From contig CAWKMY010000003.1 of assembly GCA_963851055.1 (NCBI GenBank), positions 28,261 to 92,260 on the forward strand: DNA of 64,000 nt, in the 5' to 3' direction. The translations under genes and the position numbers were made by a program. A model generated the notes under the pieces. That model was not told the origin of the DNA, did not search any database, and saw only the letters and a list, made by a program, of their open reading frames with translations. This document shows, in pieces, positions 18,767-58,645 of this stretch (positions are counted from its first letter, which is position 1; each line of letters begins with the position of its first letter). The stretch is from an uncultured bacterium. GTDB taxonomy: Bacteria; Patescibacteriota; Minisyncoccia; Phycocordibacterales; PALSA-1337.

Positions 18767-19909
18767 TTAGCGAACAGTGGCTTGCAACTCCGTCTTCGTC
18801 TTATCTATAATCTGATCTTGAATAGCGTTCACCTCCTCATTTGTGAGTGTCCTTTCCGGTGAACGATATGTTATGCGGAATGTATAGCTGACTTTATCTG
18901 CGCCAAATTTCTTGGCGTCTTTGTAAGTATCCAACAATTTCACCTCTTCGATCAGATTGCCCGCGCATTCACGCACGATCTCATAATAGTTATTGAGCTG
19001 AACGTCAGCGCCGACAATAAATGATATATCGCGGACAACCGGCGGATACTTGCTTACTTCCTTGTATTGAGAGTCAATACTCGTAAATTGCCGAGTAATA
19101 CGCGGATCGTCTGACCAAAGTATGCGGATATCTGGAATACCCATCTTTATCATAGCCAACCTCTCGCCGAAGCCGAATGCCCAGCCATTGTAAATCTCTG
19201 GGTCTAATCCGAACTTCTTCAATACAATAGGGTTAACCAGGCCTGCCCCGTTGACCTCTAGCCAATTGCCATTGAACATGATATCCATCTCGAGGCTTTG
19301 GACTGTGTAAGGAAAATCGTCGTCGAGAAATTGATACTCTATTCCCTGTCCGAATATTCCCTTGGCTAGATCAACCTGAACTTCTTTCAAGTCATCCTGG
19401 GTGATTATCTTCTTGGATTTTTTGCATATCAAAAGGCCGTCTATCTGGTGAAAAGCCGGAAAATGGTGCCTATCTATCTCGTCTTTTCTGAAAACGATAC
19501 CAGGAGACAAAGCCTTAATTTCTCCTTCTGTCTCTAACCTTTTCAAGACTTCAGAATCTTTAAGATAGAAAGACCAGAAAGCAGTCATCTGTGTGCGCAG
19601 AAGGCGGTCTTCAGAGACATAATAAGTATCAGTCTCCCTCCTGGACGGATGATCTTTCGGCGTATTCAGAAGGTCGAAATCCTGTTCGACTGTGACTATG
19701 CGCGGAAAATCCACTATGTCGAAATCCTGGAATCTCGGCAGATCCAGAACCGCATCCACCAGAAATTTTACCGGCGAGCCTGGCTTCTTGGTCAGATCCG
19801 GCAAAGCCAAAAGGCGCTTCATGCGCAGGCTCTTGAAATCAGAGCGCTTATCCAATGCAGCAAGAACCTCTTTCTCCGCCTGATCTTTGATGGAAATTAT
19901 ATGCCTCAT
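18767..19909 (-). CDS. pheS: Phenylalanine--tRNA ligase, single-chain form (PheS catalytic core fused to FDX-ACB anticodon-binding domain)
   Basis: Class II motifs FRKDEIDRHHFPAFHQIDG and AFGFGERLAMIKMG. The C-terminal ~95 aa, YPPVVRDISFIV...KVSYTFRITYRSPERTLTNEEV, matches the FDX-ACB fold normally found at the end of PheT. No pheT lies adjacent. The alternative TTG start is at 19933. Confidence 0.85.
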   Translation of the reverse strand: MRHIISIKDQAEKEVLAALDKRSDFKSLRMKRLLALPDLTKKPGSPVKFLVDAVLDLPRFQDFDIVDFPRIVTVEQDFDLLNTPKDHPSRRETDTYYVSEDRLLRTQMTAFWSFYLKDSEVLKRLETEGEIKALSPGIVFRKDEIDRHHFPAFHQIDGLLICKKSKKIITQDDLKEVQVDLAKGIFGQGIEYQFLDDDFPYTVQSLEMDIMFNGNWLEVNGAGLVNPIVLKKFGLDPEIYNGWAFGFGERLAMIKMGIPDIRILWSDDPRITRQFTSIDSQYKEVSKYPPVVRDISFIVGADVQLNNYYEIVRECAGNLIEEVKLLDTYKDAKKFGADKVSYTFRITYRSPERTLTNEEVNAIQDQIIDKTKTELQATVR

Positions 19910-19966
19910 ATAGTGTGCATAGTACTCTAACAAAAAAGGCGGGATATTTCACCTACATTCAGTGAT

Positions 19967-20003: not shown

Positions 20004-21245
20004 ATGAATCCAGTACTTTCGACTATAGTCGAGATATTCCTCTTTGCTTCGCTATATGTCCAAGTCTTTCTGATAATCACTCTCATTGAACACAGGGATA
20101 GCCTGAAGAATAAGCCGCAAAGGACGGCATTCAATTACCATTCTTTACCAACAGTCTCCGTCATAGTGCCATGTTTCAATGAAGAAGCCACGGTCATCGG
20201 CACAATAGACTCTCTGAAGAGGCTTAATTACCCTGCAGAAAAATTGTCGATCATCGCCGTAGACGACGGCTCTACTGACGACACCTGGTCTTATTTGAAA
20301 AGGTATGAAAATGATCCGCGGATAAAGATTTTGCAAAAAGAGAATGGCGGCAAGCATACAGCGGTCAATCTGGGTATCGCGAATAGCCAGAGCGACATTG
20401 TCGGCTGTCTAGATGCAGACTCTTTCGTTCACCCGGAAGCTTTAAATCGTATGGTGACATTATTCAACGATCCAAAAGTCATGGCCGTCACTCCGGCTAT
20501 CAGAGTCCGCACGCCTAAAAATATCCTCGAGCATATCCAGCACGCCGAATACAATATCGGCATATTTCTGCGAAAAATGTACTCGACTATCAACGCCATA
20601 CACGTCACGCCTGGACCATTCTCCATGTTCCGCAGATCGGTGTTCTCTATCGTAGGGCCATTCAAGAGCGCTTACAATACCGAGGATCTGGAGATGGCCC
20701 TTCGTTTGCACAGGCATAATCTGACTATAGAGAATGCGGAACATGCTTATGTCTACACAACTCCGCCATCTACTATTCGGGCTCTCATCAAACAGCGTGT
20801 CCGCTGGATCACGGGTTTTCTGCTCAATGTCCGGGACTACCGCGATATGCTCTTCAGCCGCAAGCATGGCCAGATAGGCACATTCACATTGCCGGCCGGC
20901 GTCCTGTCCCTCGTCACACTGATGTTCTTTGCCGGTTATTCTCTGGTCAATGCCGCTACTTCGACTGCTACAAATATCAGGCAGTGGCAACTCATAGGCT
21001 GGTCATGGCATTGGCCGACTTTCCAACTGTTCTTCGTCAATACAACGACTATCCGCCTTTTGACTTTTGCCTTGGTCATTTGTGCCGTAGCCTTCATCTT
21101 CTTCGGCAAACGCATAGCCAGTGGCTCATGGAAGCCGTCCCGGGATATGTTCGCCTATGCTTTGCTCTACGGCTTCATCGCACCAGTCTGGGTAGCGATA
21201 TCGTGGTGCAGAGCCGCGACACAAAGAGTTGGAAGTTGGCGATAA
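20004..21245 (+). CDS. Processive family-2 glycosyltransferase (cellulose/chitin/PNAG-synthase-like)
   Basis: VSVIVPCFNEE, DDGSTDDT, LDADS and the QRVRW (QxxRW) signature. TM helices at both the N- and C-termini. Confidence 0.8.
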   Translation: MNPVLSTIVEIFLFASLYVQVFLIITLIEHRDSLKNKPQRTAFNYHSLPTVSVIVPCFNEEATVIGTIDSLKRLNYPAEKLSIIAVDDGSTDDTWSYLKRYENDPRIKILQKENGGKHTAVNLGIANSQSDIVGCLDADSFVHPEALNRMVTLFNDPKVMAVTPAIRVRTPKNILEHIQHAEYNIGIFLRKMYSTINAIHVTPGPFSMFRRSVFSIVGPFKSAYNTEDLEMALRLHRHNLTIENAEHAYVYTTPPSTIRALIKQRVRWITGFLLNVRDYRDMLFSRKHGQIGTFTLPAGVLSLVTLMFFAGYSLVNAATSTATNIRQWQLIGWSWHWPTFQLFFVNTTTIRLLTFALVICAVAFIFFGKRIASGSWKPSRDMFAYALLYGFIAPVWVAISWCRAATQRVGSWR

Positions 21246-22994: not shown

Positions 22995-24014
22995 CTACTT
23001 CCTCAACATGACCTTGTGGACAGCTTCAGTGATGCTCTTTTCCCCCATTCCATACAATTCTATAAGTTCTTCGGGCGTGCCGGATTGGCCGAACTGATCT
23101 CTGACGCCGATGAATTCGATCGGCACCGGGAAATGAGCAGCCAAGCATTCCGCCACCGCAGAGCCCATACCGCCGACTATTTGATGTTCTTCGACGGTTA
23201 CGATAGCGCGCGATTCATGTGCAAGTCTCACAATAGCGTCTTCGTCTAAAGGTTTTATGGTTGCCAAATTCATAACCACTACTTTCTTGCCGGCTTCATC
23301 CAATTTCTTCGCAACCAATAGAGCTTTGTGAAGTAATGCGCCAGTGGCAATGATACCGACATCGAGTTTTGCCTCCTCTTTTTTGCCAGCTTCCTGCTTC
23401 TTACTCCTAAATACTATCGCCGCCTTCCCTATAGCAAACGGCGTCTCTTCTGTGGTCATAATCGGCGTGTTATTACGTGCCAATCTAATATATGTCGGTT
23501 GATCAGTCTTGGCGGCCGCTACCGTAGCCTTACGTGCCTCAATGGCGTCGCACGGTGAGATGACAACCATTCTCGGAATAACACGTGTGATAGCAATATC
23601 TTCAATAGCCTGATGCGTGCCTCCATCAGGTCCGACTGAAATTCCAGCATGAGAACCAGCTATCTTTACCGGTCTATTATTGTAAGCAATAGTTGTCCTG
23701 ATCTGCTCCCAATTCCTGCCGGGGCTGAACATTGCATATGAAGTAATGAATGGGATCTTGCCCATAGCGGCCAAGCCTGAAGCAACACCTGCCATGCTCT
23801 GCTCCGCAATGCCAATTTCGATGAATCTATCAGGAAATTTCTGCTTGAAAGCCAGCATGTGCGTCGACTCGGTCAAATCTGCGCAAAGTCCAACCACGCG
23901 CTTGTCTGCTTCAGCTGCTTTGATCAAGCCTTCACCAAAACCTTTGCGGATAGGTTGAAGCTCGACGGTGACGTCGAAGAGTTTGGGATTGAGTTTTAAG
24001 TCGGGGGTAAGCAT
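22995..24014 (-). CDS. tkt: Transketolase, C-terminal (pyrimidine-binding) subunit
   Basis: FIEIGIAEQSMAGVASGLA and GSHAGISVGPDGGTHQAIEDIA, plus the C-terminal transketolase domain. Confidence 0.9.
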   Translation of the reverse strand: MLTPDLKLNPKLFDVTVELQPIRKGFGEGLIKAAEADKRVVGLCADLTESTHMLAFKQKFPDRFIEIGIAEQSMAGVASGLAAMGKIPFITSYAMFSPGRNWEQIRTTIAYNNRPVKIAGSHAGISVGPDGGTHQAIEDIAITRVIPRMVVISPCDAIEARKATVAAAKTDQPTYIRLARNNTPIMTTEETPFAIGKAAIVFRSKKQEAGKKEEAKLDVGIIATGALLHKALLVAKKLDEAGKKVVVMNLATIKPLDEDAIVRLAHESRAIVTVEEHQIVGGMGSAVAECLAAHFPVPIEFIGVRDQFGQSGTPEELIELYGMGEKSITEAVHKVMLRK

Positions 24015-24862: not shown

Positions 24863-25753
24863 TCAAGAATTATGCGGCGATTCAATACGACCTCCGAGCG
24901 TCCTAACCTCCCCAAGCGCCCGTCTTGCCGTCTCTATCTCCTCCGGCGTCGTCGGCGGCTTGCCATGCCATTCATACTTGCGCTCGAATTCAGGGATGCC
25001 CTTTGAAGGAATTGTATTGGCGATAATGACTGACGGCTTATCAAATACCGCTTGAGCCACACCTATTGCACGGTCAATATCGCGGAAATTGTGGCCGTCT
25101 ATCTCCTGCACATGCCAGTTGAATGCTCGCAATTTATCAGCTAAAGGATTGAGTGGCATTATATCTTCAGTAAAACCATCTATCTGTATATTATTTCGGT
25201 CGATTATGACTGTGAGATTCTGCAGCTTTTCTTTGCCGCCGAGCATGAATGCTTCCCAATTCATGCCTTCATCGAGTTCACCATCGCCGGTTAGACAGTA
25301 AAATTGTTTGCCGGACGAGCGACCATTATCCATTCTATCTGCTATGGCCATGCCGACAGCCTGCGACAATCCTTCGCCGAGAGGACCTGAAGAAGTCTCG
25401 AGCATCGGCAACCAATCGCGGTGAGGATGGCCCTGAAGGCGGCTGCCTAGCTTGCGCAAAGTCTTGAGTTCAGCTATAGGAAAATATCCAGCGTGTGCCA
25501 TGGTTGCATAAAGGACTGGGCAAATGTGGCCGTTGGAAAGTATGAGCCGGTCGCGATACTCCCAATCGGGCTTCTTTGGATCGTGCTTCAGTGCGTGGAA
25601 GTAAAGGTATGTAAATATGTCCGCCATATCGAGAGGGCCGGCGGTATGGCCGGATTTCGCTTCTATGAGCGATTCGAGTATGGAACGGCGGATGTCGAGA
25701 GCTTTCTTCGTAAGAAACGCGATTTTTTCGTCAGTGAGAGGGGTTGTGGGCAT
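24863..25753 (-). CDS. tkt: Transketolase, N-terminal (TPP-binding) subunit
   Basis: GHTAGPLDMADIF, LSNGH, GDGELDEG and IIDRNNIQIDG. Confidence 0.9.
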   Translation of the reverse strand: MPTTPLTDEKIAFLTKKALDIRRSILESLIEAKSGHTAGPLDMADIFTYLYFHALKHDPKKPDWEYRDRLILSNGHICPVLYATMAHAGYFPIAELKTLRKLGSRLQGHPHRDWLPMLETSSGPLGEGLSQAVGMAIADRMDNGRSSGKQFYCLTGDGELDEGMNWEAFMLGGKEKLQNLTVIIDRNNIQIDGFTEDIMPLNPLADKLRAFNWHVQEIDGHNFRDIDRAIGVAQAVFDKPSVIIANTIPSKGIPEFERKYEWHGKPPTTPEEIETARRALGEVRTLGGRIESPHNS

Positions 25754-25795: not shown

Positions 25796-26476
25796 CTAGA
25801 GCATTTGAAATTCTGCAATAGCCGAAAGCGGATTCTCCGCTGCAAAAATGGCTGACCCGACAACGAGTCTATCTGCCCCAGCATCAATTAGCGAGCTCGC
25901 ATTATCTAGTGAGACGCCGCCATCTACGGAAATGAGCAAGTCTGGAAAAGCTTTTTTAATAGCTGCCACCTTTTTGACCACTTTTTCATCAAAAGCCTGA
26001 TGCTGGAATCCCACATTGTCTATGCCCATACATTGAACAAATTGGACCTTGCCTACAGCCACACCAAATTTCGGATCTTTAAGTATTTCGACTGGCGTAT
26101 CTATATTCAAAGCCAAACCAACATCTATGCGGCCAACTAACTTTTCAACCGCTTCCGCAACATTCCCTTTCGCCTCTATGTGGATGATCACGCGTGCGGC
26201 ACCAGCGGATACCCAGTCATCAACAATTTTCTCTGGATTATTCACCATGAGGTCGAACTCATAATCAACTTCTTCCCAAGCAGGCAATGCTTCATCTTCA
26301 CGGATGATTTGCTCAAAAGTATTATCTTTCTTCTTGTACGGCCAAGTAAAGCTCGGCACGAAATGTCCATCGCATATGTCCACCTGCACGATCTTCGTCG
26401 CGCCTTTTATGAGACTGACTTTATCTTCGATTTCGGCGAAGTCCTGCGGTAGGATGGCGGGGATGATTTCTGCCAT
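25796..26476 (-). CDS. rpe: Ribulose-phosphate 3-epimerase
   Basis: IIPAILPQ, VDICDGHFVP, DLMVNNPE and SVDGGVSLDN. ATG 26476 preferred over TTG 26485. Confidence 0.9.
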   Translation of the reverse strand: MAEIIPAILPQDFAEIEDKVSLIKGATKIVQVDICDGHFVPSFTWPYKKKDNTFEQIIREDEALPAWEEVDYEFDLMVNNPEKIVDDWVSAGAARVIIHIEAKGNVAEAVEKLVGRIDVGLALNIDTPVEILKDPKFGVAVGKVQFVQCMGIDNVGFQHQAFDEKVVKKVAAIKKAFPDLLISVDGGVSLDNASSLIDAGADRLVVGSAIFAAENPLSAIAEFQML

Positions 26477-56164: not shown

Positions 56165-58645
56165 ATGAAACTCGTCATCGTCGAATCACCTTCGAAAGCA
56201 AAGACTATTTCCAAATACCTTGGAAAAGATTTTGTCGTGGTCGCGTCCGTCGGTCATGTGCGCGATCTGCCTAAGTCGAACAAGAAAGCCATAGATATAG
56301 AGGCCGGTTTCGTGCCAAATTATGAGATAGTACCGAAGAAGGTCGTCATCATAGACGAGATTCGCGCTGATGCTGCCAAAGCTGACGAAGTTCTCATAGC
56401 GACCGACCCCGACCGTGAAGGCGAGGCTATTGCTTGGCATTTACGTGAATTATTGACCAATAAAAAGTTGGGAGGTTCCACCCCGAAAAAAGAGATAAAA
56501 CGCATCACTTATCATGAAGTAACGAAGGAAGCAGTTGAAGAAGCCTTGAAACATCCGCGCGCCATAGATGATCATTTGCGCGAAGCACAGGAAGCCAGGC
56601 GCGTTTTGGACAGGCTTGTCGGTTATGATCTATCTGGTCTCATATGGAAAAAAGTGCGTTACGGTCTCTCCGCCGGCCGCGTTCAATCACCGGCTCTCCG
56701 CATAATAATGGAGCGCGAGCGCGAGATCAGGGCTTTCAAGCCTGAGGATTATTGGGCCATAGAAGGCACATGGAGTTTGGAGTTGGGAGTTGGAAGAAAG
56801 AAGGCGGAGACATTGAAACTTACTTGTGTAGAAGAACCTCGCGACAAGAATGAAGTCGACCGCATCCTAGAAGTCGCTCGCGCCGCTTCGTGGCAAGTCA
56901 AAGACATAGAAGAAAGCGAACAAAAACGCCAACCGCGCGCGCCATTCATCACTTCTACTCTCCAGCAGGCCGCTAGTTCTCGGCTCGGCTTTTCTCCTTC
57001 GCGCACTATGGGTATTGCCCAGAAATTATACGAGTCAGGATACATTACTTATATGAGAACCGACTCGACCAACCTTGGGGCACAAGCTCTAGCCCAGATC
57101 GGCGCAGTCGTGACCAAAGAATATGGCAAAGAATATCTGCAGTTCAGAACTTATTCCGCCAAGAGCAAGAATGCCCAAGAAGCTCACGAAGCTATCCGTC
57201 CTTCGCATTTCGATAAATTGTCGGCCGGCCATAACGATGAACAAAAGAAACTTTATCGTCTCATTTGGCAACGCGCAGTAGCTTCGCAAATGGCGGATGC
57301 GAGGGTTGCGAGGACGAAGATAATTGCGAACGTAATTGCCGGGGCGATTCCTGATTTCATCGCCAATGGTTCGCGCGTCATATATGACGGCTGGTTAAAG
57401 GCTGATCCGGAATCAAATGGTGAAGAAGTCACTCTGCCAAAATGCGCCAAAGGTGAAGAGCTCAAACTTATATCCGTTGATGCATTGGCCAAGCAAACCC
57501 AGCCACCTGCAAGATATACAGAAGCTGGCCTTATCAAGGAATTGGAGAAGCGTGGCATTGGCAGGCCTTCTACTTATGCATCCATCTGCAGGACTATAGA
57601 AGAGCGCGGCTATGTGGAGAAAGAGGGCCGCTCGCTCAAGCCGACTGATACCGGCGATGTTGTATCATCTTTCTTGGAAGAATACTTCCCTACTTATATT
57701 GGCGATACATTCACAGCCGAGATGGAAAATGAGCTCGACGAAATAGCCGCCGGCGAACGCACATATGTAAAGACGTTGACTGATTTTTACGGGCCTTTCT
57801 CCAAAGAAGTTCAGTCCAAAGATAAATTGGCCAAAGCCACTAATCTCGGCGCCGCTGATCCGAAATTCAAATGTCCGAAGTGTGGCACCAGCCCCATGCA
57901 GATCAAGCTCGGCCGTGGCGGAAAATTCCTGTCATGTTCTCGTTATCCTGATTGTGACGGCTCGCTTAGCCTGGACGGCATGGAGTTCAAGAAAGACGAG
58001 CCTATCGGAATTGATCCAACGACAGGGTTGCCGATATTTGTACTGAATGGCCGCTTTGGGCCGTATGTACAGTTGGGAGTGAAATTGCCTAAAGAAAAGA
58101 AAGTCCGCGCCCAAAAATCTTCCGCGAAAAAAGTTCCGGCAGGAAAAAAAGTTGCCGCAAAGGAGGGACTGACGAGCGGTGGTGAGGAGAAAGAGTCCCT
58201 AGGCAAAAATGACACTTCACCTGACACTTTTACTGCTCAACACGGGCATATAACTAGACCTGAACAGAGCCACGAATCTGTCACCAAAAGTGTCATTTCT
58301 GCATATGTAGAGAAAGAGGCTATCACCCCGATCGCCTCAACCACGCCCGCACCCATAAAACCTCGCATGGCCTCTATCCCAAAGACAATGGACCCTTCCA
58401 AGGTGACCATAGCTGACGCCCTCAAATATTTGAGCTTGCCACGCATTCTCGGCACCGATCCCGCTACAGGCAAGAATATAACCGCCTCCATTGGCCGCTT
58501 CGGGCCATATATAGTGCGCGACGGAGAATTCCGCTCGCTCAAAGGCTTGGATAGCCCATATGACATAACCCTCGAAAGAGCCCTCGAATTATTGGCTATA
58601 GCAAAAAAGCCTAGAGGATTTGCCAAAAAGAAAAAAGTCGAATAG
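56165..58645 (+). CDS. topA: DNA topoisomerase I
   Basis: Toprim MKLVIVESPSKAKTISKYLG, DPDREGEAIAWH, the active-site Tyr region GYITYMRTDS, a Zn ribbon CPKCG...CSRYPDC and two RFGPY repeats. Confidence 0.95.
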   Translation: MKLVIVESPSKAKTISKYLGKDFVVVASVGHVRDLPKSNKKAIDIEAGFVPNYEIVPKKVVIIDEIRADAAKADEVLIATDPDREGEAIAWHLRELLTNKKLGGSTPKKEIKRITYHEVTKEAVEEALKHPRAIDDHLREAQEARRVLDRLVGYDLSGLIWKKVRYGLSAGRVQSPALRIIMEREREIRAFKPEDYWAIEGTWSLELGVGRKKAETLKLTCVEEPRDKNEVDRILEVARAASWQVKDIEESEQKRQPRAPFITSTLQQAASSRLGFSPSRTMGIAQKLYESGYITYMRTDSTNLGAQALAQIGAVVTKEYGKEYLQFRTYSAKSKNAQEAHEAIRPSHFDKLSAGHNDEQKKLYRLIWQRAVASQMADARVARTKIIANVIAGAIPDFIANGSRVIYDGWLKADPESNGEEVTLPKCAKGEELKLISVDALAKQTQPPARYTEAGLIKELEKRGIGRPSTYASICRTIEERGYVEKEGRSLKPTDTGDVVSSFLEEYFPTYIGDTFTAEMENELDEIAAGERTYVKTLTDFYGPFSKEVQSKDKLAKATNLGAADPKFKCPKCGTSPMQIKLGRGGKFLSCSRYPDCDGSLSLDGMEFKKDEPIGIDPTTGLPIFVLNGRFGPYVQLGVKLPKEKKVRAQKSSAKKVPAGKKVAAKEGLTSGGEEKESLGKNDTSPDTFTAQHGHITRPEQSHESVTKSVISAYVEKEAITPIASTTPAPIKPRMASIPKTMDPSKVTIADALKYLSLPRILGTDPATGKNITASIGRFGPYIVRDGEFRSLKGLDSPYDITLERALELLAIAKKPRGFAKKKKVE

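What the first reader, a model, noticed from the sequence alone, without database searches (positions are those of the whole stretch)
18767..19909. Single-chain PheRS: PheS core fused to the FDX-ACB domain, no pheT alongside
Bacterial PheRS is normally an (alpha-beta)2 enzyme with pheS-pheT adjacent. Here the ~380-aa protein has the complete class II catalytic core and then the ferredoxin-fold anticodon-binding domain that normally ends PheT (YPPVVRDISFIV...SYTFRITYRSPERTLTNEEV). This is the architecture known from mitochondrial monomeric PheRS. The flanking genes are unrelated to pheT.
Basis: partly seen in the sequence, partly recalled or inferred. Interest (0 to 1): 0.55.

Follow-up and report, generated by a model that had tools for sequence, protein, structure and literature searches.

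The report
Mitochondrial-type single-chain PheRS in Parcubacteria
This ultra-small (candidate phyla radiation) bacterium encodes a one-piece phenylalanyl-tRNA synthetase built like the mitochondrial enzyme, and in related genomes it sits where the normal two-subunit bacterial enzyme used to be, so it is very probably their working PheRS.

Summary
Window 18767-19909 (-) encodes a 380-aa protein with a class II PheS core (Pfam tRNA-synt_2d, 2.4e-51) fused to an FDX-ACB anticodon-binding domain (4.2e-26). There is no pheT or second pheS in the 64 kb.

A high-confidence AlphaFold model (pLDDT 95.9) superposes over its full length on human mitochondrial PheRS (TM 0.80). The Phe-pocket and ATP motifs are kept.

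The gene belongs to a very conserved Parcubacteria family found in at least 104 GTDB species. It is as conserved as GyrB and lies among housekeeping genes (rpsB-tsf, gyrB, tyrS, valS). No canonical pheS or pheT core occurs in 1.28 Mb of flanking sequence.

In Moranbacteria-like relatives the gene directly follows a 142-165-aa remnant of PheT (B1-B2 only). Sister genomes carry intact pheS-pheT in the same secD-secF neighbourhood. This points to displacement of the (alpha-beta)2 enzyme.

The family is distinct from NCBI's "mystery ligase" SrmL, which occurs as a separate paralogue in one relative.

Genome-wide absence of pheT could not be tested with these tools, and some other Parcubacteria keep pheST. 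I found no paper describing a bacterial single-chain PheRS. Verdict: real, probably the sole PheRS, a new bacterial member of the mitochondrial-type kind.

The parts
18767..19909 (-). Gene for the 380-aa single-chain PheRS. ATG at 19909, stop codon at 18767-18769.
   Evidence: ORF list. Homologues are 380 aa with 100% coverage. Pfam finds two domains.
19775..19909 (-). N-terminal 45 residues: a short strand plus two helices ending in the family motif LALPDLT. This replaces the long coiled-coil N-domain of canonical PheS.
   Evidence: AF2 secondary structure. PF02912 is not detected. The motif is conserved in the family.
19085..19756 (-). Class II catalytic core (tRNA-synt_2d), residues 52-275.
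   Evidence: Pfam 2.4e-51. Foldseek matches PheS alpha cores.
19436..19495 (-). Motif 2 region VFRKDEIDRHHFPAFHQIDG. It contains R141 and Q155/D157, the equivalents of the Arg and Gln/Glu of canonical PheS.
   Evidence: Translation. Alignment with E. coli PheS, human FARS2 and 120 relatives. R141, H154 and Q155 are near-invariant.
19304..19315 (-). FPYT, the wall of the phenylalanine pocket. F199, Y201 and T202 correspond to T. thermophilus F258, F260 and V261.
   Evidence: Translation. Alignment. Residue roles from PMC3275996. The family splits 60 FPYT to 22 FPFT.
19160..19186 (-). Motif 3, GWAFGFGER, one residue shorter than the universal GxGxGxER. A244 corresponds to E. coli A294, and R250 is the motif 3 arginine.
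   Evidence: Translation. Alignment. The deletion is present in 75 of 82 GTDB relatives and in 120 of the 120 closest homologues.
18770..19054 (-). FDX-ACB (ferredoxin-fold anticodon-binding) domain, residues 286-380. It is homologous to domain B8 of PheT.
   Evidence: Pfam 4.2e-26. TIGR00472 positions 695-798. tblastn with E. coli PheT residues 696-794.
18328..18648 (-). Context: 106-aa coiled-coil ORF (weak DUF16 match) between the PheRS gene and gyrB.
   Evidence: Small unannotated ORFs occupy this position in relatives, there on the opposite strand.
15475..17688 (-). Context: gyrB, downstream on the same strand. This linkage is conserved across the family.
   Evidence: Translation. GyrB is present in 44 of 82 loci, about 20 of them with gaps of only 9-130 nt.
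20004..21245 (+). Context: divergently transcribed GT2 glycosyltransferase. It is not pheT.
   Evidence: Pfam. The same divergent neighbour is found in 10 relatives.

Best explanation
**Claim.** The gene encodes the housekeeping phenylalanyl-tRNA synthetase of this Parcubacteria (Paceibacteria, CPR) bacterium, in a single-chain form built like the mitochondrial enzyme.

**Proposed mechanism.**
- One polypeptide carries the class II catalytic module, which activates Phe with ATP and transfers it to A76 of tRNA-Phe.
- The same polypeptide carries a C-terminal ferredoxin-fold domain that reads the GAA anticodon.
- As in human mitochondrial PheRS, the anticodon domain probably packs on the catalytic domain (closed form) and swings away when tRNA binds.
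- There is no beta subunit and therefore no B3/B4 editing site, so Tyr-tRNA-Phe would not be corrected in cis.

**History.** In this lineage the enzyme has displaced the ancestral (alpha-beta)2 PheS/PheT. In some relatives only the B1-B2 tRNA-binding fragment of PheT survives, as a separate gene directly upstream.

**Shown.** Domain architecture, fold, conserved catalytic and pocket residues, phyletic spread, synteny, and the PheT remnant.

**Inferred.** Enzymatic activity, monomeric state, lack of editing, and absence of pheST elsewhere in this genome.
For: **Architecture and fold**
- Pfam finds tRNA-synt_2d plus FDX-ACB.
- The AF2 model has pLDDT 95.9 and pTM 0.91.
- Foldseek's best hits are human mitochondrial PheRS in the closed form (3CMQ, 5MGV), with TM 0.80, rmsd 3.0 A and E 1e-34. 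Bacterial PheS alpha matches only the core.

**Active site**
- Motif 2 R141, FHQ(I)D, FP(Y/F)T, A244 and motif 3 R250 align with the residues that bind ATP and Phe in T. thermophilus, E. coli and human mitochondrial PheRS (residue roles from PMC3275996).
- Tyr at the second aromatic position is the state of eukaryotic cytosolic PheRS, described there as a conservative change.

**Housekeeping behaviour**
- At least 104 GTDB species carry it, across Taylor-, Nealson-, Staskawicz-, Wildermuth-, Ryan- and Moranbacteria, with one copy per locus.
- Mean pairwise identity is 72%, against GyrB 69%, Tsf 65%, RpsB 59% and ThrS 56% in the same genome pairs. Divergence correlates positively with that of the neighbours (r 0.3-0.6), which indicates mostly vertical descent.
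- Neighbours are rpsB-tsf upstream, gyrB directly downstream, or tyrS-x-gene-valS.

**Displacement**
- No canonical pheS or PheT core (B3/4-B5-CLM) occurs in the window or in 84 loci totalling 1.28 Mb. This holds with both E. coli and CPR queries.
- At least 11 contigs (9 GTDB loci plus L096 and L097) have a 142-165-aa gene immediately upstream, 10-25 nt away in most of them. It matches TIGR00472 positions 1-155 at 176 bits.
- That gene is 58-64% identical to the N-terminus of genuine PheT from sister Moranbacteria.
- L093 has secD-secF-small ORF-pheS-pheT. Related L096 (SecF 70% identical) has secD-secF-small ORF-...-tyrS-pheT'(B1-B2)-single chain.
- The canonical loci nearest in sequence have no single-chain gene within 6 kb.

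**Other support**
- A Paceibacteria MAG with canonical pheT-pheS shows no second PF01409 or PF03147 protein among at least 750 annotated genes.
- A true SrmL (400 bits, cut-off 300) is a separate gene in L077 and forms its own clade at 100% bootstrap. This family is therefore not the 'mystery' paralogue.
- tRNA-Phe(GAA) in a relative is a normal bacterial tRNA-Phe with A73.
Against: - Genome-wide absence of pheS/pheT was not tested. The window is 64 kb, and the tools could not read the rest of any complete relative such as OY969557.1 (876 kb).
- If pheST lay at a random place in a 0.7-0.9 Mb genome, only about 1.5 occurrences would be expected in the sampled flanks. The flanks are also syntenic and so not independent. 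Zero hits is therefore weak evidence.
- Some Parcubacteria, including Moranbacteria and a MAG whose best match is a Nealsonbacteria PheT, do keep pheST.
- Motif 3 has lost one residue in this subclade, with unknown effect on ATP binding.
- The protein scores below the curated cut-offs of TIGR00469 (237.6 vs 258.35) and TIGR00468 (158 vs 237.45). NCBI annotates the family as 'hypothetical protein'.
- Single-chain relatives in other bacteria (Oligoflexia L088, L092) sit in non-housekeeping contexts and may be accessory paralogues.
- No biochemical data exist.
Confidence: 0.75

Rival explanations
1. It is an accessory PheS-like paralogue, similar in kind to SrmL, that coexists with a canonical pheS-pheT encoded elsewhere. 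It would ligate something other than Phe to tRNA-Phe, or Phe to another acceptor.
For: - The best NCBIfam hit by score is the 'PheS-related mystery ligase SrmL' (246 bits), and the protein falls below every PheRS cut-off.
- Motif 3 has a one-residue deletion.
- Single-chain relatives in Oligoflexia and another bacterium lie in non-housekeeping contexts.
- Canonical pheST exists in some Parcubacteria.
- Absence of pheT in this genome is untested.
Against: - The SrmL cut-off is not met (246 vs 300). A genuine SrmL (400 bits) is a different gene in L077 and a separate clade at 100% bootstrap.
- SrmL has changed pocket residues (HPYT, PHQMD) where this family keeps FP(Y/F)T and FHQID.
- Conservation equals that of GyrB, and synteny is with translation and replication genes.
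- PheT is reduced to a B1-B2 stub right beside the gene in some relatives.
- A 0.6-0.9 Mb CPR genome rarely keeps redundant synthetases (general knowledge).
Confidence: 0.15
2. It is the PheRS catalytic subunit but does not act alone. It works with a separately encoded tRNA-binding partner, the PheT-derived B1-B2/YtpR-like protein, so the enzyme is a two-gene system rather than a true monomer.
For: - The 142-165-aa B1-B2 gene lies 10-25 nt upstream on the same strand in most of at least 11 contigs.
- It is well conserved, with 33 invariant columns, and it passes the YtpR cut-off (137 vs 100).
- Standalone copies are common in Parcubacteria.
Against: - Most relatives, and the window itself, have no such gene nearby.
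- It always co-occurs with tyrS just upstream. NCBIfam also has a TyrS-associated family of PheT-N-terminal-domain proteins (TapR), so its partner could be TyrRS. A B2-TyrRS fusion in CPR is described in PMC5370408.
- Mitochondrial PheRS needs no partner (PMC3275996).
- B2 is missing from many CPR PheT proteins.
Confidence: 0.08
3. It is a eukaryotic (mitochondrial FARS2-type) sequence that reached the contig by contamination, chimeric assembly or very recent transfer, and it is not a working bacterial gene.
For: The closest solved structures and one of the two best curated models are mitochondrial.
Against: - The gene lies inside bacterial operon-like contexts in more than 100 independent assemblies, including a closed 876-kb chromosome.
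- It has no presequence, and composition across the region (GC 0.44-0.48) is within the window's range.
- The family is monophyletic (100%) and groups with other bacterial forms (82%) rather than inside the mitochondrial clade.
- It is under strong purifying selection.
Confidence: 0.01

Closest known systems
Mitochondrial monomeric PheRS (human FARS2, yeast MSF1; TIGR00469 pheS_mito; PDB 3CMQ, 3TUP)
   Same: - One chain made of the PheS catalytic module plus a B8/FDX-ACB anticodon-binding domain.
- No coiled-coil N-domain and no editing domain.
- Full-length fold match (TM 0.80).
- It is the best sequence match among solved structures (E 1e-53).
- Thr at the V261 position, as in the human enzyme.
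   Different: - It is encoded in a bacterial genome with no targeting peptide and is shorter (380 vs 415-451 aa).
- Its N-terminal region carries an LALPDLT motif instead of the IGRNLHxxxxHP motif.
- It lacks the insertion between motif 2 and the FPFT strand.
- Motif 3 is one residue shorter.
- It scores 237.6, below the 258.35 cut-off.
- It belongs to a bacterial clade separate from the mitochondrial-type clade (82% bootstrap).
Canonical bacterial (alpha-beta)2 PheRS: PheS (TIGR00468) plus PheT (TIGR00472)
   Same: - The catalytic core is homologous to PheS (33-37% identity to E. coli PheS).
- The C-terminal domain is homologous to PheT domain B8 (26% identity to E. coli residues 696-794).
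- The Phe-pocket logic is the same.
   Different: - The two pieces are fused in one chain.
- PheS N-domain, PheT B1-B7 and the editing site are all absent.
- There is no adjacent pheT.
- It scores 158, below the 237.45 cut-off.
- Canonical operons in CPR look like L085 (thrS-infC-rpmI-rplT-pheS-pheT) or L093.
SrmL, 'PheS-related mystery ligase' (NCBIfam NF051887)
   Same: - The two-domain layout is the same over the whole profile (positions 14-344 of 349 are matched).
- It is bacterial and falls in the same bacterial single-chain clade.
   Different: - The cut-off is not met (246 vs 300).
- A genuine SrmL (400 bits) is a distinct gene 7 kb from this family's gene in L077, next to a LysRS-like paralogue.
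- SrmL has altered pocket and motif 2 residues, and it forms a separate clade at 100% bootstrap.
YtpR / TapR / Trbp111-type free-standing tRNA-binding domains (relevant to the upstream gene in some relatives, not to the window gene itself)
   Same: The upstream 142-165-aa gene in Moranbacteria-like relatives passes the YtpR cut-off (137 vs 100) and carries Pfam tRNA_bind.
   Different: - It also covers the B1 part of PheT (TIGR00472 positions 1-155, 176 bits).
- It is 58-64% identical to true PheT N-termini of sister lineages, so here it looks like a PheT remnant.
- It is absent from the window.

Membership tests
Mitochondrial-type single-chain PheRS (TIGR00469 / FARS2 kind) | Class II PheS catalytic core with motifs 1-3 | tested here: met
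   Pfam tRNA-synt_2d at 175 bits. Motif 2 R141 and motif 3 R250 are present. Motif 3 is one residue short.
Mitochondrial-type single-chain PheRS (TIGR00469 / FARS2 kind) | FDX-ACB (B8) anticodon-binding domain fused C-terminally in the same chain | tested here: met
   Pfam FDX-ACB at 91.7 bits, residues 286-380.
Mitochondrial-type single-chain PheRS (TIGR00469 / FARS2 kind) | Whole-chain fold and domain arrangement of human mitochondrial PheRS | tested here: met
   AF2 pLDDT 95.9. Foldseek to 3CMQ gives TM 0.80 and rmsd 3.0 over 388 columns.
Mitochondrial-type single-chain PheRS (TIGR00469 / FARS2 kind) | Score above the curated equivalog cut-off of TIGR00469 | tested here: not met
   237.6 bits vs 258.35. 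The nearest 50%-cluster representative, P0121, does pass (264.3).
Mitochondrial-type single-chain PheRS (TIGR00469 / FARS2 kind) | Active as a monomer without a beta subunit | not testable with these tools
   This needs biochemistry. Indirect evidence only: there is no PheT core near 84 relatives.
Mitochondrial-type single-chain PheRS (TIGR00469 / FARS2 kind) | Placement inside the mitochondrial/eukaryotic clade | tested here: not met
   The NJ tree places it in a bacterial clade (82% bootstrap) beside, not within, the mitochondrial-type clade. The tree is rough, and the taxonomy of the metagenomic representatives is unknown.
Canonical bacterial PheS alpha subunit (TIGR00468) | N-terminal coiled-coil domain (PF02912) and a score above the cut-off | tested here: not met
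   PF02912 is absent. The score is 158 bits vs 237.45.
Canonical bacterial PheS alpha subunit (TIGR00468) | Partner pheT (B3/4, B5, CLM, B8), usually adjacent | tested here: not met
   None is found in the window or within 10 kb in 84 relatives. The rest of the genome was not tested.
SrmL (NF051887) | Score above the curated cut-off of 300 bits | tested here: not met
   246.2 bits. A true member in L077 scores 400.
SrmL (NF051887) | Same orthologous group or clade | tested here: not met
   The SrmL clade and this family are each monophyletic at 100% bootstrap. Both genes occur on one contig.
Functional PheRS (EC 6.1.1.20), irrespective of form | Phe-binding pocket residues (tt F258, F260, V261, A314 equivalents) retained | tested here: met
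   F199, Y201 (F in 22 of 82 relatives), T202 and A244 are retained. Residue roles from PMC3275996.
Functional PheRS (EC 6.1.1.20), irrespective of form | Charges tRNA-Phe with Phe | not testable with these tools
   An aminoacylation assay or complementation test is needed.

The most novel reading that the evidence does not exclude
**Claim 1.** Large parts of the candidate phyla radiation, including many Parcubacteria orders and the UGA=Gly (code 25) lineages, translate with an editing-free, mitochondrial-type single-chain PheRS that displaced pheS-pheT.

**Claim 2.** The PheS-core plus B8 chimera was therefore invented in bacteria. The mitochondrial enzyme of all eukaryotes would descend from such a bacterial donor rather than being a eukaryotic innovation.
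Probability: 0.2. Interest if true: 0.8.

Novelty: new member of a known kind. Interest (0 to 1): 0.6.

Why it matters
Reviews of PheRS state that the heterotetramer is conserved in all known prokaryotes. They also state that the mitochondrial enzyme is the only monomeric synthetase with a class II catalytic module (PMC3275996).

A bacterial lineage that relies on the single-chain form would have four consequences.
- It would overturn that generalisation.
- It would supply free-living-type bacterial relatives for asking where the mitochondrial enzyme came from. In the tree made here, the bacterial and mitochondrial-type clades are sisters.
- It would imply that these bacteria lack cis-editing of Tyr-tRNA-Phe, which bears on translation fidelity in reduced genomes.
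- It would affect practice. pheT (TIGR00472) is, to my knowledge, used as a single-copy marker for bacterial phylogeny and completeness, and it would be systematically missing from such genomes. NCBI's pipeline meanwhile labels the real PheRS 'hypothetical protein'.

The 380-aa enzyme is also a compact candidate for engineering.

Tried and rejected
- **Single-sequence AlphaFold.** pLDDT was 37, so the model was unusable. It was replaced by a run with a 104-sequence alignment.
- **Literature (papers read).** Nothing was found on a bacterial or CPR single-chain PheRS, or on SrmL. The only Patescibacteria paper that mentions PheRS uses pheS as a counter-selection marker.
- **Weak E. coli PheT hit at window 25832-26155.** This is ribulose-phosphate 3-epimerase, so it was rejected.
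- **The 826-aa ORF at 56165-58645, checked as a possible PheT.** It is topoisomerase I.
- **Genome-level co-occurrence test.**
  - P0214 led to a Microgenomates pheS-pheT operon. Its PheT homologues are all Microgenomates, with no contig in common with the single-chain family.
  - P0232 is from an ordinary bacterium, and P0234 sits on a 1-kb contig.
Complete chromosomes such as OY969557.1 therefore could not be scanned for pheT.
- **Metagenome scan with the B1-B2 alignment.** Ordinary full-length PheT dominated the results. It yielded only the negative result that the nearest canonical loci lack the single-chain gene.
- **Supplement of the Minisyncoccus paper.** The stored part is truncated and contains no PheRS entry, so it is uninformative.
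- **afdb50 fold library.** It was not available.
- **E-to-D in FHQID and S-to-T in the QMT motif as signs of changed specificity.** Rejected, because both states are common among mitochondrial-type sequences.
Full report
**1. What is in the window.**
- The minus strand carries an ORF at 18767..19933.
- The ATG at 19909 gives a 380-aa product.
- Pfam finds two domains and nothing else: tRNA-synt_2d at residues 52-275 (E 2.4e-51) and FDX-ACB at residues 286-380 (E 4.2e-26).
- The coiled-coil N-domain of canonical PheS is absent.

**2. No pheT nearby.**
- The gene is flanked by a 106-aa coiled-coil ORF and then gyrB downstream, and by a divergent GT2 glycosyltransferase upstream.
- tblastn with E. 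coli PheS and PheT hits only this gene in the 64 kb. A CPR-type PheT gives no hit at all.
- One weak PheT hit is ribulose-phosphate epimerase. The only ORF of about 800 aa is topoisomerase I.
- The window looks like a Parcubacteria (CPR) genome. It has a split transketolase, DprA-TopA, SerRS and five tRNAs.

**3. What the protein resembles.**
- By sequence, the best solved relatives are human mitochondrial PheRS (E about 1e-53). Bacterial PheS alpha chains follow at 1e-38, and PheT chains match only through the last 100 residues.
- NCBIfam places the protein between families, below every cut-off:
  - SrmL ('PheS-related mystery ligase'): 246 bits, cut-off 300.
  - pheS_mito: 237.6 bits, cut-off 258.35.
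  - pheS: 158 bits, cut-off 237.45.
- A single-sequence AlphaFold run failed. A run with a 104-sequence alignment gave pLDDT 95.9 and pTM 0.91.
- Foldseek against the PDB ranks the closed form of human mitochondrial PheRS first (3CMQ, 5MGV: TM 0.80, rmsd 3.0 A, 388 columns, E 1e-34). Bacterial PheS alpha matches only the core, with TM about 0.55.

**4. Is the active site intact?**
- I aligned the protein with E. coli PheS, human FARS2 and about 120 relatives. Its two long segments agree with the PDB alignment printed.
- The residue roles come from the review PMC3275996.
- The protein keeps these residues:
  - Motif 2 Arg (R141) and FHQ(I)D.
  - The aromatic wall FPYT. F199, Y201 and T202 correspond to T. 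thermophilus F258, F260 and V261, and human mitochondrial PheRS also has Thr at the last position.
  - A244, which corresponds to E. coli A294.
  - Motif 3 Arg (R250).
- Tyr at the second aromatic position is the state of eukaryotic cytosolic PheRS. 22 of 82 relatives have Phe there.
- The D-for-E and T-for-S variants are common among mitochondrial-type sequences.
- One real oddity exists. Motif 3 reads GWAFGFG(E/D)R, one residue shorter than GxGxGxER everywhere else.
  - The deletion is present in 75 of 82 GTDB relatives and in all 120 closest homologues.
  - Four family members, and the nearest outgroups, keep the full length.
  - Its effect is unknown.

**5. Distribution and selection.**
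- The protein database holds thousands of relatives at 74-91% identity (the 120 listed), nearly all of them 380 aa. NCBI calls them 'hypothetical protein', and JGI calls them 'PheRS alpha chain'.
- A scan of GTDB species representatives found 104 species. They span Taylor-, Nealson-, Staskawicz-, Wildermuth-, Ryan- and Moranbacteria, and they include a closed 876-kb chromosome.
- In the same genome pairs the protein is as conserved as GyrB (72% vs 69%). It is more conserved than Tsf (65%), RpsB (59%) and ThrS (56%). Its divergence tracks that of its neighbours (r 0.3-0.6), which indicates mostly vertical descent under strong constraint.
- Neighbourhoods are housekeeping:
  - gyrB lies directly downstream on the same strand in about 20 loci.
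  - rpsB-tsf lies upstream in 20 loci.
  - The order is tyrS-x-gene-valS in 8-9 loci.

**6. Relation to canonical PheRS.**
- No canonical pheS or PheT core is present in 1.28 Mb around 84 relatives.
- On its own this is weak evidence. About 1.5 chance occurrences would be expected, and the flanks are syntenic.
- A stronger result came from the same search.
  - In nine Moranbacteria-like loci, a 142-165-aa gene lies directly upstream, 10-25 nt away in most of them.
  - It matches PheT positions 1-155, that is domains B1-B2 (TIGR00472, 176 bits). It also passes the YtpR cut-off.
- Its homologues include the N-termini of real PheT proteins of sister Moraniibacteriota at 58-64% identity.
- Three states are visible:
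  - L093 has secD-secF-small ORF-pheS-pheT.
  - L094 has a pheT split into a B1-B2 gene and a B3/4-to-B8 gene.
  - L096 has secD-secF-small ORF-(two genes)-tyrS-B1-B2 gene-single-chain PheRS. It is related to L093, with SecF 70% and SecD 59% identical.
- The canonical loci nearest in sequence have no single-chain gene within 6 kb.
- In these lineages PheT has therefore been cut down to a stub that sits beside the single-chain gene. This is what displacement of the (alpha-beta)2 enzyme would leave behind.
- Conversely, a Paceibacteria MAG with canonical pheT-pheS shows no second PheS-core or FDX-ACB protein among at least 750 annotated genes.
- The window's own lineage has no stub nearby, so for it the inference is by homology with the rest of the family.

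**7. Relation to SrmL and to mitochondria.**
- One relative (L077) carries a second, divergent two-domain gene that is a bona fide SrmL (400 bits). It lies next to a LysRS-like paralogue. SrmL is therefore a separate paralogue, with altered pocket residues.
- A search of 1.84 billion cluster representatives found 238 relatives at E <= 1e-30.
  - The nearest are other bacterial single-chain forms.
  - Next come sequences that pass the mitochondrial model.
- A neighbour-joining tree with 100 bootstraps gave these supports:
  - All single-chain forms apart from canonical PheS: 100%.
  - This family: 100%.
  - SrmL: 100%.
  - A bacterial clade containing both: 82%.
  - The mitochondrial-type clade: 44%.
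- The fusion therefore seems to have arisen once. The direction of transfer between bacteria and eukaryotes is unresolved.
- One bacterial relative (P0126) has in-frame TGA at conserved Gly positions. That points to the code-25 CPR lineages.
- Relatives in an Oligoflexia MAG and in another bacterium sit in non-housekeeping contexts. One sits in a virus-like contig.

**8. Mechanism.**
- The proposed mechanism is that of mitochondrial PheRS (PMC3275996).
  - The catalytic module forms Phe-AMP and transfers Phe to tRNA-Phe.
  - The ferredoxin-fold domain reads the anticodon.
  - The two domains open on tRNA binding.
  - There is no editing site.
- Architecture, fold, residues and genomic behaviour are shown.
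- Activity, monomeric state, lack of editing and sole-enzyme status are inferred.
- tRNA-Phe in a relative is a normal bacterial tRNA-Phe(GAA) with A73.

**9. Novelty and limits.**
- Nine of the ten allowed full-text searches found no description of a bacterial single-chain PheRS. [quoted passage not shown] - I file it as a new (bacterial, probably housekeeping) member of the mitochondrial-type kind.
- The untested point is genome-wide absence of pheS-pheT.
- My confidence is about 0.75 that it is the working and sole PheRS of this organism.

Noticed in passing
L040 9493-9990, L096 6001-6429, and also L026, L031, L032, L042, L043, L046, L047, L079: A 142-165-aa gene lies directly upstream of the single-chain PheRS gene and always downstream of tyrS. 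It equals the B1-B2 N-terminus of PheT: TIGR00472 positions 1-155, above the YtpR cut-off, and 58-64% identical to real PheT N-termini of sister Moranbacteria. It is either a PheT remnant or a trans-acting tRNA-binding partner.
   Followed up: yes
L077 15195-19031: This cluster holds two dCTP-deaminase-like genes, a LysRS-like class II paralogue (482 aa, below all NCBIfam cut-offs) and a genuine SrmL 'mystery ligase' (371 aa, 400 bits). It lies 7 kb from the housekeeping-type single-chain PheRS. A similar pair of dCTP-deaminase-like genes sits beside the code-25 single-chain form in L091.
   Followed up: partly
L094 2463-4903: pheT is split into two adjacent ORFs in a Patescibacteria MAG: a 245-aa B1-B2 gene and a 564-aa B3/4-B5-CLM-FDX-ACB gene. 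Three unrelated genes lie between pheS and pheT.
   Followed up: partly
L091 9463-10833: The single-chain PheRS relative P0126 has about 14 in-frame TGA codons, several at positions where relatives have conserved Gly (for example in motif 3). This indicates genetic code 25 (Gracilibacteria/Absconditabacteria). The database translation shows them as Trp.
   Followed up: partly
L087 8001-9065: A 354-aa single-chain PheRS that passes the mitochondrial model (TIGR00469) sits in a 160-kb virus-like contig. That contig has a one-strand gene array of mostly unknown genes, plus eIF-1A, dCMP deaminase and PcfJ.
   Followed up: no
window 22995-24014 and 24863-25753: Transketolase is encoded as two separate genes (C-terminal half and N-terminal half) on the minus strand. 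They are separated by about 850 bp that holds a 157-aa ORF on the other strand.
   Followed up: no
window 9956-11278: TsaD/Kae1 is 440 aa, and the Pfam match is broken into two stretches. This suggests an insertion of roughly 100 aa relative to the usual bacterial TsaD.
   Followed up: no
window 19937-19954 (minus strand): A terminator-like hairpin followed by a T-run lies about 20 nt upstream of the PheRS start codon, in the 94-nt gap to the divergent GT2 gene. No Rfam family (such as a T-box) matches there.
   Followed up: no
L007, L014, L016, L017, L050 and others, about 30-350 nt upstream of the gene: A tRNA-Thr(UGU) gene lies directly upstream of the single-chain PheRS gene on the same strand in many relatives. 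This is not so in the window.
   Followed up: no
record titles (e.g. L005, L027, L032, L039): Several MAGs that carry this Parcubacteria gene are titled Saccharibacteria, Gammaproteobacteria, Bdellovibrionales or Nanoarchaeota in their public records. These are probably mislabelled or mis-binned assemblies.
   Followed up: no
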